Position numbers: made by a program. Shown here piece by piece: positions 52,601 through 61,600 of a DNA stretch of 64,000 nt. How positions within the stretch are numbered: the first letter of the stretch is position 1; each line of letters starts with the position of its first letter. Source of the DNA: Malacoraja senta (Eukaryota); contig CM075978.1 of the NCBI GenBank assembly GCA_038087875.1, positions 174,964,001-175,028,000 of the forward strand. Reading direction: 5' to 3'.

Positions 52601-55600
52601 CATACTCATATGGCCTGGTTCACTATTAAACCAGTAAGGACCTACAGTGAAAGGGTTAAGGGTTAAAGAAAATAATAAGGACACATTCCCCACATGATGT
52701 GAAACATTCCCCACATCAACCAAATCTCCAATAATTTTCGTCATACATTCCAAACTCTGTTTTATGATGGAAGTTAGATGGTATACAGTAATTCTGACCC
52801 GCATCACCACAGTTGAAACATAGGAACTTACTAAGATAGTGGAGGGGTAGGTAGTGTAGAGAAAGCAGGGACTCTGCAGAAATACTTGGGCAGGTTGAGA
52901 GAGTGGGCTGAGAAGTGGCAGATGGAATACAGCATAGCAAAGTGCGGAAACATGTATTTTGGTAGTAGGAATAAAGGCATTGACTATTTTCTAAATGGGG
53001 GGAGAATTCAGAAAGGGACTTGGGAATGCCGGTTCACTATACCCAAAAAGTTCATTTGCAAGTCGAATCGACAGTAAAGAAGGTGAATGCAACATTGGTA
53101 TATATTTCGAGAGGGACAGAATTTAAAAAAACATCGATGTAATGCTGAGGCTTTATAAGGCATTGGTCAGACCACATTTGGAGTATTGTGAGTGGATTTG
53201 GATTCCATATGTGAGGAAAGGTGTGCTGGTGTTGGAGAGGGTCTGGAGGAGGTTTACGAGAATGATCCCAGGAATTATTGTGTTAACATATGATGAGCGT
53301 GTGAAGGCACTGGGTCTGTATTTGCTGGAGTTTGGAAGGATGAGTGGGGGAGAGGGGGAGTGGGGGAGGGGGGACCTCGTTGAAACTTACCGAATAGTGA
53401 AAGGCCTGGATATTTTTAAGGTGGAGAGGATGTTTCCAATAGTGGGAGAGGCGAGGATCGGCGGCTATAGCCTCAGAATTAAAGGACGTACCTTAAGAAA
53501 GGAGACGAGGACGAATGTCTTTAGTCGGAGGATGGCGAATCTGTGGAATTCATTGTCACAAATGTTCGTGGTATTTTTAAGTTGGAGATTGACAGATTTA
53601 AGGATTTCAGGTGTTATGGGGCGAAGGTAGGAGAATGTGGTTAACATGGAAATATAGTTAAGCCATGTTTGAATGACGGAGTAGACTTGATTGAGTGAAT
53701 GGCCCAATTCGGCTCCTGGAACTTATGAACTGATGATTCGATTTGGGTACTGATTGGGGAGATCGCCGCCCACCCCTCCCCCCTCCCTTTGATTGTAGGT
53801 ATATATTTAAACGTTTAAGCTTCTCCATATTGAACATCCCTTCCCGTCGGAATTGTTTGAGGTGTAATTTGGTAGAGTAAATTAATATTTTTTCAGGGAA
53901 CATATCACATGGCGCTGATCGTTATCTTCGTAGTTCATATAAGGATAATTTAGGAGGAATTTGCCATGAATAGACGTAACATTTAGTTTCAACGAATTCA
54001 TGAAATATGACTTCCACACGCGATGAACAATCACGGCATCTATCAATGCAATTGCAAAGGTCGCCATTTAGTTATTTCTGCCTGAAATAGATCAACAGTA
54101 AGAAATAAAAAATACAAATGCTCACAAGCTAAATTATTGATATCAAACAATTATAGTTAAATGACAACAAAATCGTTTCCACGTTGATAATGTATAATTT
54201 GGCACGGATTTTAAGTTGATGTCTTAAATTAAGCACGCCGTTAAATTCTAGTCCTTCACTTGTTCTTCGATTTGGCCCCTTCTGTTTTCTAGAATCTACT
54301 CAGCTCCACAGAGGCATAAATCAGCTTCTGACTAGCATTCACTCGCTTAGTCTGTGAATACAATGTTTAGGAATAGATCATTATTTAGAGAAGAAAGCCA
54401 ATTTAAAAAAAAGAAAACACTTTTACTGTTCCGAATGACTTGCGACAACCCACAACCTACCTCTGCATATGTGGTTCGTTCCTCCGTGCCTTTCATATTT
54501 GAAACCATCTTAGACCTGGATAAATCTAATGCTGCATATGAGCAGAACTCATCATTTTCTTTTCCCGTCCGCTGCAAAATAATGTTTTATTCATGTGTAT
54601 TACTCCTTATATGCAATTGAATTCAGATGGTGAATGCAAAAAGGCAATGTAATATTTTCAATTTCTCAAAAGAGTAAAAAAAAATGCCATGGCAGCATGC
54701 CGAAAATCTTTACACGTTGGACTAATTTTATCAATGACTTCCACTTTTTCTTTTAAAACGCTAGAACATTTTGGGTCCTGCTTATTAATCGATTTGAGCT
54801 CATCCTAATTGTTTCTGTGGTGTAGGACTCCGGAATCACGTAGTACCCACACAGAATCAGGCCACCCCCCCCATCGGGCTATGCTGATCTTTACGGCCTT
54901 GTACATTAATACCACTTGCTCTTATTCCCCACCTTATTCCCCATCTATTTACCTTGGTATCCTAAAGGTTTTCATACATAGAAATTGCATTTACGTCCAT
55001 TGTCTGCTCTTGCTGCGCTTTTCAGGTCTCAACTGCTCCTTCTACAAAAACCGTACCACTCAAATCCCCTTTAAAATTTATGTTCCCCATATTAAGCGTT
55101 TGTCCCCTCGCTTTTAATACCCATTGCAGGGAAATGAAAATCTATTCCATGACTGCCTTTGATCATTTTACATACCTCGGTCAAATCACCCATCAGCCTA
55201 ATTTGCCTCAACGAAAGCAACCCCATCTTAAACAATCTCTCCCAACAAGTAAAGTGGGCATGTAATTTGCGTACGGTAAGAGATTATATGAAAAGGCATT
55301 TTGAAAAGTCATTCAGGAAAATTCCGTAGAACGCACAAAAAAACCCGGGCAAATTCTGAATGCGTTTCTAAACGACTGAATTCACTTCATTCTGAAGTTC
55401 CTTTTAATCAAAATGCACCCGCAATTGACAAACATTTGTAGTTCAAAACTAGAATGTCAGAGCTGTTCAAGGTGCGCTAATGCATAAAGAAAGCCAATCG
55501 ATATTCATGGGATATAGTTACAGGTTACTGTACTTGAGTGGAGAGCGTTAATGCCATAGGTTAAAATAACCCGTAAAAATCTTAGCTTACCGTGTCTTCA

Positions 55601-58600: not shown

Positions 58601-61600
58601 CAGATGCACCCTGCCCGGGGAGAGGCCGCGGAGAGACTGCGGGGGGAGTATCTCACTCTGACTGTGANNNNNNNNNNNNNNNNNNNNNNNNNNNNNNNNN
58701 NNNNNNNNNNNNNNNNNNNNNNNNNNNNNNNNNNNNNNNNNNNNNNNNNNNNNNNNNNNNNNNNNNNNNNNNNNNNNNNNNNNNNNNNNNNNNNNNNNNN
58801 NNNNNNNNNNNNNNNNNNNNNNNNNNNNNNNNNNNNNNNNNNNNNNNNNNNNNNNNNNNNNNNNNNNNNNNNNNNNNNNNNNNNNNNNNNGACTGACTGT
58901 GTGTGGGTGTGGGGGGTGGGACAGAGAGAGAGAGAGACACACACACACACAGGCAGCGTGGAGTACCTTTAACCGTGTGTGTGGGAGAGAGACAGAGGCA
59001 GACACACACACACAACGGGCAGTGTGTACCTCAGTCTGTGTGTGTGTGTGGGGGAGAGAGAGACACAGAGACAGTGTGGACCTCTGACTGTGTATGAAGG
59101 AGATGGGGAGAGAGACAGAGAGAGAGAGGCACAGAGGCAGTGTGGTGTACTTCAGCGTGACTGTGGGGGGGGGGGAGAAAGAGCGCACAGGACGTCGGTC
59201 TATCTGTGTGTGTGGGAGGGAAGAGAGACTAAGCAGAATACATCGGTCTTATTGTGTGTGGGGGAGAAAGAGAGAGGTGGGGGGGGGGGGGGAGAAAGAG
59301 AGAGGTGGGGGGGGGAAGAGAGAAAGGGGGGAGACGTATATACACACAATGCAGAGTTTTACTGTGTATGTGGGAGACACAGATGGACTTACACAGATGG
59401 ACTTACCTCGGTCTTACTGTGTGTGGGAGAGGGGGAGAAAGAGACGTACACTCACAGAGGCAGAGTCTCTCAGCCTGTGTGAGAGGCAGGGAGGGAGAGA
59501 GAGACACCCACACACAAGGTGGATGTGAAATCTCACCTGCCTGTTTCAGTGACCGGCACCCGCCGCTAGTGAATGAAGACACCCCCATCTGTCTCCCCCT
59601 CCTCTCCCTCCACTCTCCACCCTCTCTCCTCCACCCCCCTCCCTCCTCCAACCCCCCACTCCCCCCCAATTTGGAAATGTCATCCCATCACCCATTCCTT
59701 CTCTCCAGAGATGCTGCCTGCCCGCTGAGTTAAAGAGTTCCCACGGAAGACTCACGAGTCACTAATGTAAACGCACGGGCCACTGCGTTCTTACAACGTG
59801 TTTAAATGTTTCAAATTTTAACCTCAAGAGTACATTTTACTCGTGGAAAAGTTTAAACATGTTTGAATTTTTCCAAGAGTTAACAAGTGTCACGGGTACC
59901 TTCCGTTAGCGCCAAGAGTCGCTGAGTTGCGTCCACGAGTTCCGACGTTCCCGCTACGTTAATCGTACGTGATTACCACGAGTTAAATTTGTTTTAAGCT
60001 CGGGGTACCTCGTGGGTCAGCTCGCACAGTGAGACAGGGGTTTAACTATGGGTGCTGCTTGTACGGAGTTTGTAGTTTCTCCCTGTGACCTGCGTGGGTT
60101 TTCTCCTGGAGCTCCGGTTTCCTCCCACATCCCAAAGTCGTACAGGTTTATAGGTTAATTAGCTTGGTAAAATTGTAAATTGTCACTAGTATGTGTAGGA
60201 TAGAGTTAATATGCGGGGATCGCTGTTCGGCGCTAAGTCGGTGGGCTGAACGGCCAGTTTCTGTGCTGTATGTCTAAACTCTAAAATCTAAACACGGAAA
60301 CAGACCTTCGACTCAACTAGCTCCTGACGACCAAAATGCCGCAACCACGCTAGTCGCTCTTGCACGCATTTGGTCGTATCTATGTAAACCTTTCATATAC
60401 ATGTACCTGTCCAAATGTATTTTAAATGTTGCTATATTACGTGCCCCTACCACCTCCCATGGCAGTTCGGTCCGTTTACTCAACACCAAGAAATAATGTT
60501 GAAAGATAGAACAACTGTGCGAAGATAACTGAAAGGTCGTGCTAGGAGAGGCAATGAATAGACGTTTACGGAGTTTTTAGATGGCATGGCATAGCGTGGT
60601 GGTTTAAAGATAAACACAGTGGATTGTAAATCAGGCTGAGTGCAATAATACTGATCCTAACCAAATTAACCCTGACCCTAACCAGGCAAGAGAAGATTGA
60701 AAATTAGTCTGTGAATAAAGGATGAAAGTTGCAAAGAATCGTTGGTCACTTCTAAATTATTTCAAGTACGTAAAGCCCGCATTGAACCATCGTGTTGAGA
60801 GTGTAAAGCATGTGGGTGCTGAGAATAATTGGAACACCTTGCGTTTTCTCAGATTGTTTTACAGCATATGCTGTTAATGCCTTGAATAAACCGACTTGTT
60901 TGAGAAACTCACCACTGCTCTAATCAATATTCTTGGTGTATGTCCCATTCTGCGCCGTAATTAGGAGGGCAATTCAAGGACATGAAAGCTAGATTTAGGG
61001 TATGGGTCAGGCACATAATTCCCCCCATTACGACGTTGCCATAAAGTTGAGTAAAACCCTAACACACTTATGACAATTTTTTAAACATACGAAACAGAAT
61101 AAATACAAGCCGATTGATTAGATGCTCACGTTTACTTCTCTTGATGTGTCGATACACCATCGTAATGATAAGCAGAAGAATAAATATAATTCCACCCGTT
61201 GCGCATCCATAAATAAGAAAATAGTTCGAATTATTGTCTGTAAAATAAAAGAATGAAAAACATATAACTGAAATTAACTGCCAGGTCCAGACCAAGACAG
61301 ATTAATTGTACTGATATTTAAGTTAAATATTTTACGAATATTCGCAAATATTTAGTTAAGTTTACTTTCGAGATACAGCTAAATAAAATCGCCAGTACAC
61401 TAATTCTCTCCTGCATACTGGGGATAAATTACAAAAGCCAATTAACCTACCCAATTTGTACGCCTAGGCAATGCAGTAGGAACCGGAGCACCCGGAGAAA
61501 ACCCACACAGTCACAGGGATAAGGTACAAACTCTCCACAGGCAGCACCCGTAGTAAAGATCGAATCCGGGTCTCCAGTGCTGTAAGGCCCTTCCACAAAA

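What the first reader, a model, noticed from the sequence alone, without database searches (positions are those of the whole stretch)
54289..61237. Divergent convergent paralog (gene B) revealed by exon architecture rather than sequence identity
Seen: TM 108 vs 111 nt (phase 1-1), spacer 44 vs 44 nt (1-0), Tyr exon (0-0) ending at Y-x-x, and a short last intron (109 vs 95 nt) before an ITIM exon, despite very low amino-acid identity. The genes face tail-to-tail about 25 kb apart. Inference: an old inverted duplication within a diversified inhibitory-receptor cluster; both members are inhibitory-type, and an activating partner with a charged TM might lie nearby.
[Added by the scan's program, not by the reader: the finding's places include an assembly gap (unread letters, written N; its length is only estimated) at 58668 to 58890. 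Whether the letters on both sides are continuous or in frame is not known: test that first.]
Basis: partly seen in the sequence, partly recalled or inferred. Interest (0 to 1): 0.65.

Follow-up and report, generated by a model that had tools for sequence, protein, structure and literature searches.

The report
Tail of a second inhibitory receptor
Four minus-strand exons encode the membrane anchor and tyrosine-motif tail of a second inhibitory-type immune receptor gene related to its neighbour: an ordinary gene-family duplicate, with its outer half beyond the window.

Summary
Gene B on the minus strand has a 108-nt TM exon, a 44-nt exon, a 111-nt tyrosine exon ending Y-x-x, a 109-nt last intron and a 63-nt last exon with a canonical ITIM. 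All junctions are AG/GT and the phases are 1-1, 1-0, 0-0. Gene A on the plus strand mirrors this and also carries V-set and C1-set exons.

The N gap lies inside gene B's 5,495-nt intron, and no reading frame crosses it. Both gap sides belong to one ~2.1-kb insertion with inverted ends that splits one SINE, so the locus looks contiguous.

Exon-by-exon tail similarity exceeds composition-matched shuffles: summed score 0 of 5000. The tyrosine exons are reciprocal best hits in the window. Much of that signal comes from one tyrosine motif repeated within each tail.

One caveat on "44 vs 44": gene A has an in-frame acceptor 6 nt downstream that gives 38 nt.

Not shown: gene B's ectodomain (none found in the 2.8 kb upstream), its splicing, any activating partner, or that the event was an inverted duplication.

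Verdict: a likely paralogous, SIRP-like inhibitory receptor pair. New member of a known kind; modest interest.

The parts
61130..61237 (-). Gene B transmembrane exon, 108 nt, phase 1-1. It encodes a short N-rich outer stub, about 24 uncharged residues, then a basic stop-transfer cluster.
   Evidence: an AG acceptor follows a T-rich tract, and the donor is GTGAGC. There is no charged residue in the hydrophobic stretch.
55635..61129 (-). Gene B intron 1 of the tail, 5,495 nt. It holds the N gap, SINEs and a ~2.1-kb insertion.
58668..58890 (.). Assembly gap of 223 N, lying within the intron. No coding frame crosses it.
   Evidence: One search shows it is the only N run. One search shows it is flanked by a G-rich, GT/GA-rich minisatellite with 52-69 nt spacing.
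57914..60038 (.). Insertion with inverted ends that contains the gap and splits a SINE (halves at 57852-57912 and 60045-60286).
   Evidence: pair I1: 40-nt arms, 80% complementary; both SINE halves are colinear with the intact copy at 14464-14773.
55591..55634 (-). Gene B 44-nt exon, phase 1-0, with no tyrosine motif.
   Evidence: TTAG acceptor and GTAAGC donor; rank 1 of 257 candidates.
54461..54571 (-). Gene B tyrosine exon, 111 nt, phase 0-0. It carries C-S-Y-A-A-L and, at its 3' end, T-T-Y-A-E.
   Evidence: reciprocal best non-self hit with gene A's tyrosine exon (E 0.14 and 0.17); 0 of 5000 shuffles reach the observed score.
54352..54460 (-). Gene B last intron, 109 nt. The length is not a multiple of 3, so it must be removed for the ITIM exon to be read in frame.
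54289..54351 (-). Gene B last exon, 63 nt, with the canonical ITIM L-I-Y-A-S-V and a TAG stop.
   Evidence: 22 of 5000 shuffles reach the observed score.
11906..11960 (+). Gene A likely leader exon, 55 nt, phase 1, followed by a 170-nt intron to the V exon. This is a provisional call.
   Evidence: an ATG followed by a hydrophobic run, with donor CAG|GTTAAT.
12131..12454 (+). Gene A V-set exon, 324 nt, phase 1-1, with a J-like end.
   Evidence: Pfam V-set, E 8.5e-11; exon boundaries.
20207..20488 (+). Gene A C1-set exon, 282 nt, phase 1-1.
   Evidence: Pfam C1-set, E 6.7e-13; exon boundaries.
26155..26265 (+). Gene A transmembrane exon, 111 nt, phase 1-1, uncharged.
26825..26868 (+). Gene A 44-nt exon, phase 1-0. 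An in-frame alternative acceptor at 26831 would give 38 nt.
28847..28933 (+). Gene A tyrosine exon, 87 nt, phase 0-0. It carries P-T-Y-A-D-L and, at its 3' end, I-T-Y-G-Q.
29029..29151 (+). Gene A last exon. It starts with V, which completes the ITIM I-T-Y-G-Q-V, and carries L-T-Y-A-T-L and T-V-Y-A-G-I before the stop.
   Evidence: an ATTAAA/AATAAA signal lies 49 nt after the stop.

Best explanation
Gene B is the 3' half of a type I membrane receptor gene of the immunoglobulin superfamily: a TM exon plus three cytoplasmic exons. Its tail is homologous to the tail of the neighbouring gene A, which is a leader-V-C1-TM receptor. The 5' exons of gene B would lie beyond position 64000 on the minus strand.

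Inferred mechanism. After ligand binding by the unseen ectodomain, Src-family kinases would phosphorylate the tail tyrosines. The phosphorylated motifs would then recruit tandem-SH2 phosphatases of the SHP-1/SHP-2 type and dampen activating signals. These motifs are one canonical ITIM in the last exon and two degenerate sites 23 residues apart in the preceding exon.

Shown here: the exons, phases, splice signals, tyrosine motifs, the uncharged TM segment, and tail similarity to gene A.

Inferred only: splicing, expression, phosphorylation, phosphatase recruitment, the nature of the ectodomain, and descent from gene A's lineage by duplication.
For: Exon chain:
- One search shows four open exons with AG/GT at every junction and phases 1-1, 1-0, 0-0. 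The ITIM exon is in frame only if the 109-nt intron is removed.
- Searches show an uncharged hydrophobic stretch followed by basic residues.
- Gene B's 44-nt exon ranks 1 of 257 candidates.

Similarity to gene A:
- The tyrosine exons of A and B are each other's best non-self tblastn hit in the 64-kb window. The match is an ungapped 27 residues running to the exon's 3' end, 8 of 27 identical.
- Against 5000 shuffles, the observed score was reached 0 of 5000 times (tyrosine exon), 22 of 5000 (last exon), 88 of 5000 (TM exon) and 0 of 5000 (sum).
- In the 27 aligned codons, identity is 16 of 27 at position 1, 15 of 27 at position 2 and 9 of 27 at position 3. This is the pattern of old, constrained coding sequence.
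- The motif YA.[LV][DNE][LF][ST] occurs 4 times in all six frames of the window. All four are at tail tyrosines of A and B; shuffles give a mean of 0.06. The motif was defined post hoc.

Gene A's identity: it carries V-set (E 8.5e-11) and C1-set (E 6.7e-13) exons.

Scaffold: continuity across the gap is supported.

Against: - Gene B's ectodomain is not in the window, so "receptor" is an inference from the tail.
- Only 1 of gene B's 3 tail tyrosines fits the strict ITIM. C-S-Y-A-A-L fails at position -2, and T-T-Y-A-E|T fails at +3 once spliced.
- The 44-nt exons show no sequence similarity (2120 of 5000 shuffles reach the score).
- Cross-exon scores are as high as same-exon scores: A-last against B-Tyr scores 31, while A-last against B-last scores 29. 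Much of the signal is therefore one repeated tyrosine motif.
- There is no AATAAA or ATTAAA within 1,966 nt after gene B's stop. Gene A has one 49 nt after its stop.
- There is no DNA-level similarity between the two loci.
- The TM exon and the other three exons lie on opposite sides of an assembly gap.
- A TM exon plus three cytoplasmic exons also occurs in CEACAM1-type genes. Paralogs there often skip those exons in their mRNA (passages of PMC5856374).
- No transcript evidence was available.
Confidence: 0.65

Rival explanations
1. Gene B is a relic or unused set of exons. It would be a partial duplicate holding only the TM and tail exons, or a gene whose tail exons are no longer included in mRNA.
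For: - There is no canonical polyadenylation hexamer for 1,966 nt after the stop.
- Two of the three tyrosine sites are degenerate.
- No Ig exon lies in the 2.8 kb upstream.
- In expanded CEACAM1 families, tail exons are present in the genome but often skipped (passages of PMC5856374).
- The same paper says SIRP families keep a single ITIM-bearing member, citing van Beek et al. 2005, which I did not read.
Against: - All four exons are open and all six internal splice signals are intact.
- Codon positions 1 and 2 are more conserved than position 3.
- Gene A's own C1-to-TM intron is 5.7 kb. An Ig exon beyond 64000 is therefore expected rather than missing.
Confidence: 0.2
2. Gene B belongs to a different ITIM-receptor family. 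Its likeness to gene A would then be generic: phase-1 TM exons, short cytoplasmic exons and look-alike tyrosine motifs are common to many IgSF inhibitory receptors.
For: - Phase 1-1 exons are the rule for IgSF domain and TM exons (established knowledge).
- A TM exon plus three cytoplasmic exons occurs in CEACAM1 (PMC5856374).
- The 44-nt exons are not similar, and cross-exon scores equal same-exon scores.
- The generic ITIM pattern is not enriched in the window: 284 hits against a shuffled mean of 347.
Against: - The match between the tyrosine exons is ungapped and runs to the exon end.
- The tyrosine spacing is the same in both genes (23 residues).
- The last intron is at the same position and phase relative to the second tyrosine.
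- A longer shared motif occurs only at these four sites.
- The two genes lie 25 kb apart.
Confidence: 0.1
3. The gene B exons are chance open frames with chance splice dinucleotides.
For: AG..GT-bounded open stretches are common: there are 257 phase-compatible candidates in gene B's interval alone.
Against: - The summed similarity score is reached by 0 of 5000 shuffles.
- The tyrosine exons are reciprocal best hits.
- The 44-nt exon ranks 1 of 257.
- Order, strand and phases all fit a single chain.
Confidence: 0.03

Closest known systems
SIRP-alpha (SHPS-1 / CD172a) and the SIRP family
   Same: - Gene A combines a V-set domain with a J-like end, a C1-set domain, an uncharged TM segment and four tail tyrosines in two pairs, spaced 23, 13 and 22 residues apart.
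- C1-set domains outside antigen receptors, MHC, tapasin and beta-2-microglobulin are a SIRP hallmark (passages of PMC2785349).
- SIRP-alpha signals through ITIMs that recruit SHP-1 and SHP-2 (passages of PMC12975943).
- An Atlas cluster named "SHPS1 phosphatase (Fragment)" is rank 4 (score 0.92) for gene A's C1 exon. This is a lead only.
- From recall, not from any call: SIRP-alpha tail sites of the T-Y-A-D-L type resemble the shared motif found here.
   Different: - Only one C1 exon was found in gene A, whereas SIRP-alpha has two (PMC12975943).
- Gene B has three tail tyrosines, not four, and its ectodomain is unseen.
- SIRP families are reported to hold a single ITIM member (PMC5856374, citing van Beek 2005), but here two neighbours carry inhibitory-type tails.
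- Orthology, synteny and CD47 binding were not tested.
- PDB sequence searches with the V exon did not list a SIRP chain among the 60 rows shown of 457 matches. The same was true for the C1 exon, among the 60 shown of 10,101 matches.
CEACAM1-type inhibitory receptors
   Same: A TM exon followed by three short cytoplasmic exons carrying ITIM/ITSM sites. The family expands by duplication, with divergent tails (passages of PMC5856374).
   Different: CEACAM ectodomains are IgV-like plus IgC-like of another type. Gene A's second domain scores as C1-set (E 6.7e-13). No sequence comparison with CEACAM tails was possible.
PD-1 / BTLA type tails (ITIM followed by ITSM)
   Same: Two tyrosine sites about 23-25 residues apart are thought to engage the tandem SH2 domains of SHP-2. 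The system is conserved in cartilaginous fish (passages of PMC12151841).
   Different: PD-1 has a single V domain and no C1. Gene B's spliced second site (T-T-Y-A-E-T) fits neither the ITIM nor the ITSM definition.
UrIg / UrIg2 (non-rearranging VJ-C1 genes of elasmobranchs)
   Same: The best PDB sequence hit of gene A's C1 exon is UrIg2 (9dmx, E 1.7e-14). Both are VJ-C1 architectures (PMC12227049).
   Different: The score is the sum of three weak domain matches (per-domain E 0.0014 to 0.15), so it reflects generic C1 likeness. The term ITIM occurs 0 times in the main text of PMC12227049, and UrIg2 has many C domains.

Membership tests
ITIM-bearing inhibitory IgSF receptor (functional class) | Single-pass TM segment without a charged residue, so no adaptor coupling | tested here: met
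   the hydrophobic stretches of gene B and gene A are uncharged and are followed by basic residues.
ITIM-bearing inhibitory IgSF receptor (functional class) | At least one cytoplasmic (S/I/V/L)xYxx(I/V/L) site | tested here: met
   gene B has L-I-Y-A-S-V. Gene A has I-T-Y-G-Q|V and L-T-Y-A-T-L. The definition is taken from PMC12151841. The bare pattern alone is not enriched in the window (284 hits against 347 in shuffles).
ITIM-bearing inhibitory IgSF receptor (functional class) | Extracellular Ig domain(s) | not testable with these tools
   Gene B has no V or C1 exon between 61238 and 64000, and the window ends there. Gene A meets this feature.
ITIM-bearing inhibitory IgSF receptor (functional class) | Phosphorylation-dependent recruitment of SHP-1/SHP-2/SHIP | not testable with these tools
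   This needs biochemistry.
SIRP family | N-terminal V-set domain followed by C1-set domains (two in SIRP-alpha) | tested here: inconclusive
   Gene A has one V-set exon and one C1-set exon. A second C1 exon was not found: the weak hit at 24480-24575 lies in a short ORF without Ig features. Gene B's ectodomain is unseen.
SIRP family | SIRP-alpha-type tail with four tyrosines in two pairs | tested here: inconclusive
   Gene A has four tyrosine sites. Gene B has three.
SIRP family | Phylogenetic grouping or synteny with known SIRP genes | not tested
The PDB and Atlas results are generic.
SIRP family | Binding of CD47 (SIRP-alpha) | not testable with these tools
   No ligand data are available.
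CEACAM1-type receptors | TM exon plus three cytoplasmic exons with ITIM/ITSM | tested here: met
   The layout is described in PMC5856374.
CEACAM1-type receptors | CEA-type IgV-like N domain and IgC-like (not C1) domains | tested here: not met
   Gene A's second domain is C1-set, 49.2 bits against a cut-off of 21. Gene B is unseen.

The most novel reading that the evidence does not exclude
The two genes are members of the SIRP lineage (V-C1 receptors with SIRP-alpha-type multi-tyrosine tails) in a non-tetrapod vertebrate, and two neighbouring members keep inhibitory tails.

This would place the SIRP-type receptor and its split-ITIM tail architecture much deeper in vertebrate history than the mammals, chicken and lizard where SIRP clusters are reported. 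A 2022 review states that the origin of SIRPs is unknown (passage of PMC9652883). It would also depart from the reported rule of one ITIM-bearing member per SIRP family (passage of PMC5856374).

The source organism was not established by any search.
Probability: 0.3. Interest if true: 0.45.

Novelty: new member of a known kind. Interest (0 to 1): 0.25.

Why it matters
If real, gene B adds a second inhibitory-tailed member next to a V-C1 receptor gene. V-C1 genes outside the antigen receptors are few and are discussed as relatives of antigen-receptor precursors (PMC2785349, PMC10751288). A dated pair of such genes with a shared tail architecture would help trace when SIRP-like inhibitory receptors arose.

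As it stands, this is an ordinary outcome of immune-receptor gene-family duplication. The finding's main practical value is as an annotation aid: it gives exon coordinates and flags an alternative acceptor.

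Tried and rejected
Structure route:
- Single-sequence AlphaFold2 of gene A's V exon gave mean pLDDT 46.6, and of its C1 exon 36.2. Both models are too poor to use, so no fold search was run.

PDB sequence searches:
- Gene B's tyrosine exon and gene A's last exon each gave 0 matches at E up to 10.
- The V exon gave only generic hits such as DCC, PD-L1, TCR mu and VNAR.
- The C1 exon gave UrIg2 and antibody constant domains. 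The UrIg2 score is a sum of three weak domain matches, so I rejected UrIg membership.

Atlas: the V exon returned generic V-set clusters. The C1 exon returned a butyrophilin C domain at 0.93, C1-set clusters and an SHPS1-named cluster at 0.92. These are leads only.

Other checks in the window:
- A second C1 exon in gene A: the weak tblastn hit at 24480-24575 (E 0.2) lies in a 47-residue ORF without Ig features. Rejected.
- An extra 35-nt exon at 56037..56003 on the minus strand has AG and GT, is phase 1-0, and ranks 4 of 257. It is unsupported otherwise. The T-T-Y-A-D-Y reading seen in another frame is phase-incompatible with the TM exon.
- ORFs upstream of gene B's TM exon (63533-63844 and 62092-62361, minus strand) matched 0 Pfam families.
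- Rfam at gathering thresholds gave 0 matches and the tRNA scan gave 0 genes.

Literature:
- Four searches listed no paper describing SIRP-like genes in cartilaginous fish. They were: signal regulatory protein + cartilaginous fish + ITIM (0 papers); SIRP/shark/C1-set/inhibitory; signal-regulatory protein + shark (29 papers, 12 listed); SIRP/CD47/zebrafish/ortholog/jawed vertebrates.
- The library lacks most subscription journals. Dornburg and Yoder 2022 is not held.

Not done:
Every search was exon by exon, and only scores were summed.
- Unchecked because closed or absent: the search for homologous proteins, the search of protein representatives, the metagenome and viral contig collections, any vertebrate genome or transcript collection, and supplementary files of papers.

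Full report
Scope and limits. The window is eukaryotic, rich in retroelements (Pfam RVT_1 on ORFs 723-1682, 9211-9750 and 37254-39581), and has one N run, 58668-58890. I do not take it for human: the Ig exons match human chains in the PDB only remotely. The source organism was not established by any search. Both genes are spliced models, so every search was made exon by exon.

The gap. The 223 N lie inside the 5,495-nt intron between gene B's TM exon and its 44-nt exon. No reading frame crosses them, so "in frame" is not at issue. What matters is whether the TM exon (61.2 kb) and the three tail exons (55.6-54.3 kb) really sit on one piece of DNA.

Two observations tie the sides of the gap together.
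- The gap sits in a ~2.1-kb stretch (57914-60038) whose ends are 40-nt inverted repeats, 80% complementary. One end lies on each side of the gap (pair I1).
- This stretch interrupts a SINE. The 5' part (57852-57912) and the 3' part (60045-60286) match an intact copy at 14464-14773 in the same orientation and order, abutting at the insertion point.

The flanks next to the N run are a G-rich, GT/GA-rich minisatellite with 52-69 nt spacing, a likely reason for the assembly break. I conclude the scaffold join is probably right. The true gap length is unknown, and I did not try to fill it.

The observation.
- Gene B, minus strand: TM exon 61237..61130 (108 nt, phase 1-1); 44-nt exon 55634..55591 (phase 1-0); tyrosine exon 54571..54461 (111 nt, phase 0-0, ending T-T-Y-A-E); a 109-nt intron; last exon 54351..54289 with L-I-Y-A-S-V and a TAG stop.
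- Gene A, plus strand: TM exon 26155-26265 (111 nt); 44-nt exon 26825-26868; tyrosine exon 28847-28933 (87 nt, ending I-T-Y-G-Q); a 95-nt intron; last exon 29029-29151.
- Every junction has AG and GT. The stops face each other 25,137 nt apart.
- The last introns (109 and 95 nt) are not multiples of three. The ITIM exons are therefore in frame only after splicing at exactly these sites.

Is the 44-nt exon a cherry-pick? I listed every AG..GT stretch of 20-150 nt that is open and would carry phase 1 to phase 0 between the TM and tyrosine exons. I ranked these with a crude splice matrix built from recalled frequencies.
- In gene B the 44-nt exon ranks 1 of 257 candidates, of which 11 are 44 nt long.
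- In gene A it ranks 3 of 137. An in-frame acceptor 6 nt downstream (26831, giving 38 nt) scores higher: 8.1 against 6.1.
- So "44 vs 44" is one of two readings in gene A. The phase class is the same either way.

Is the likeness more than chance? With tblastn of each exon peptide against the whole window, the tyrosine exons of A and B are each other's best non-self hit (E 0.17 and 0.14). The match is an ungapped 27 residues reaching the exon's 3' end, with 8 of 27 identical. The two tyrosines in that exon are 23 residues apart in both genes.

Against 5000 composition-preserving shuffles, the observed local score was reached as follows:
- Tyrosine exon: 0 of 5000.
- Last exon: 22 of 5000.
- TM exon: 88 of 5000.
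- 44-nt exon: 2120 of 5000.
- Summed score: 0 of 5000.

In the 27 aligned codons, identity is 16 of 27 at position 1, 15 of 27 at position 2 and 9 of 27 at position 3. That pattern fits old coding sequence under constraint. A longer motif, YA.[LV][DNE][LF][ST], defined after seeing the data, occurs 4 times in six frames. All four hits are tail tyrosines of A and B, against a mean of 0.06 in shuffles.

Results that cut the other way.
- The generic ITIM pattern is not enriched in the window (284 hits; shuffled mean 347), so an ITIM match alone means nothing.
- The 44-nt exons are not similar.
- A-last against B-Tyr scores 31, as high as A-last against B-last at 29. Much of the signal is therefore one repeated motif, and the exon-to-exon assignment rests on architecture.
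- blastn finds no DNA similarity between the loci beyond low-complexity matches.

What gene A is.
- The ORF at 12109-12516 holds a V-set exon (12131-12454; Pfam E 8.5e-11).
- The ORF at 20182-20538 holds a C1-set exon (20207-20488; E 6.7e-13). Both exons are phase 1-1.
- A likely split leader lies at 11906-11960.
- No second C1 exon was found.
- Gene A's tail has four tyrosine sites: P-T-Y-A-D-L, I-T-Y-G-Q|V (an ITIM split by the last intron), L-T-Y-A-T-L (ITIM) and T-V-Y-A-G-I (ITSM form). Definitions are from passages of PMC12151841.

C1-set domains are reported only in antigen receptors, MHC, tapasin, beta-2-microglobulin and SIRPs (passages of PMC2785349). SIRP-alpha is a V plus two C1 receptor that signals through ITIMs to SHP-1 and SHP-2 (passages of PMC12975943). 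SIRP-alpha is thus the closest known design.

Membership is not established.
- PDB sequence hits are generic. The top C1 hit, UrIg2, is a sum of three weak domain matches.
- The Atlas gives generic V-set clusters for the V exon. For the C1 exon it gives a butyrophilin C domain, C1-set clusters and an SHPS1-named cluster at rank 4.
- Single-sequence structure models were too poor to search with: pLDDT 46.6 and 36.2.

What gene B is. Within the window it is only a TM segment and a tail.
- The hydrophobic stretch is uncharged and is followed by basic residues, so it is not the adaptor-coupled activating type.
- Tail sites: C-S-Y-A-A-L fails the strict ITIM at position -2. T-T-Y-A-E|T fails at +3 after splicing. 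L-I-Y-A-S-V is a canonical ITIM.
- The 2.8 kb upstream of the TM exon holds no V or C1 exon. The hallmark scan, Pfam on the two long ORFs there (0 families) and tblastn with gene A's exons all agree.
- Gene A's own C1-to-TM intron is 5.7 kb, so gene B's Ig exons, if any, are expected beyond 64000.
- There is no canonical polyadenylation hexamer within 1,966 nt after gene B's stop. Gene A has one at 49 nt.

Mechanism. The best-supported reading is an inhibitory receptor tail. Phosphorylated tyrosines would recruit tandem-SH2 phosphatases, which are conserved from sharks to mammals (passages of PMC12151841). The exons, motifs and TM character are shown. Everything from splicing onward is inferred.

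The main rival is that these exons are a relic or are skipped. Precedent exists in expanded CEACAM1 families, where genomic tail exons are often left out of the mRNA (passages of PMC5856374). The same paper notes that CEACAM1-type genes also have a TM exon plus three cytoplasmic exons, so the exon count alone is not specific.

- Homology of the tails and the inhibitory type of both members are supported.
- "Inverted duplication" is compatible with the data but not demonstrated.
- A "cluster" is two genes here.
- No further V, C1, TM or tail copy, and so no activating partner, was found in the window.

Novelty. I found no paper on SIRP-like genes in cartilaginous fish in four searches, but the library lacks most subscription journals. 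A 2022 review says SIRP clusters are known in mammals, chicken and Anolis and that their origin is unknown (passage of PMC9652883). If the window is from a cartilaginous fish and gene A groups with SIRPs, that would be of moderate interest. As tested here, the finding is a new member of a known kind: a diverged neighbour in an immune-receptor gene family.

Noticed in passing
window 43862-47400 and 47467-50685: A tandem duplication of about 3.3-3.6 kb at roughly 96% identity, seen as two colinear blocks with an indel of about 280 nt, in the space between the two genes. It carries retroelement-like ORFs.
   Followed up: partly
window 57914-60038: A ~2.1-kb insertion with 40-nt inverted ends (80% complementary) that splits a SINE. 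Inside it are a GT/GA-rich minisatellite (52-69 nt spacing) and the N gap. It looks like a DNA-transposon-type insertion but was not classified.
   Followed up: partly
window 26825-26868 (alternative start 26831): Gene A's 44-nt exon has tandem in-frame acceptors 6 nt apart (TAG then CAG). The downstream one gives a 38-nt exon and scores higher with a crude matrix.
   Followed up: partly
window 54352-54460 (minus) and 28934-29028 (plus): If the short last intron is retained, gene B reads T-T-Y-A-E-V, an ITSM-form site, and stops 37 residues later without the ITIM. Gene A reads I-T-Y-G-Q-V-K and then stops. In both genes the donor GTA supplies the V at +3.
   Followed up: partly
window 56003-56037 (minus): A 35-nt AG..GT stretch, open and phase 1-0 like the 44-nt exon, ranking 4 of 257 candidates. 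It could be an alternative mini-exon or chance.
   Followed up: partly
window 52285-54288 (minus): There is no AATAAA or ATTAAA for 1,966 nt downstream of gene B's stop. The first canonical hexamers are at 52322 and 52285.
   Followed up: no
window 11906-11960 (plus): A likely split-leader exon of gene A (ATG followed by a hydrophobic run, phase 1), 170 nt upstream of the V exon, as in antigen-receptor V genes.
   Followed up: partly
window 723-11200 and 37254-39581: Several reverse-transcriptase ORFs (Pfam RVT_1, E 6.7e-27, 1.1e-08 and 5.7e-25), including a 776-residue open frame at 37254-39581 with a zf-RVT match.
   Followed up: partly
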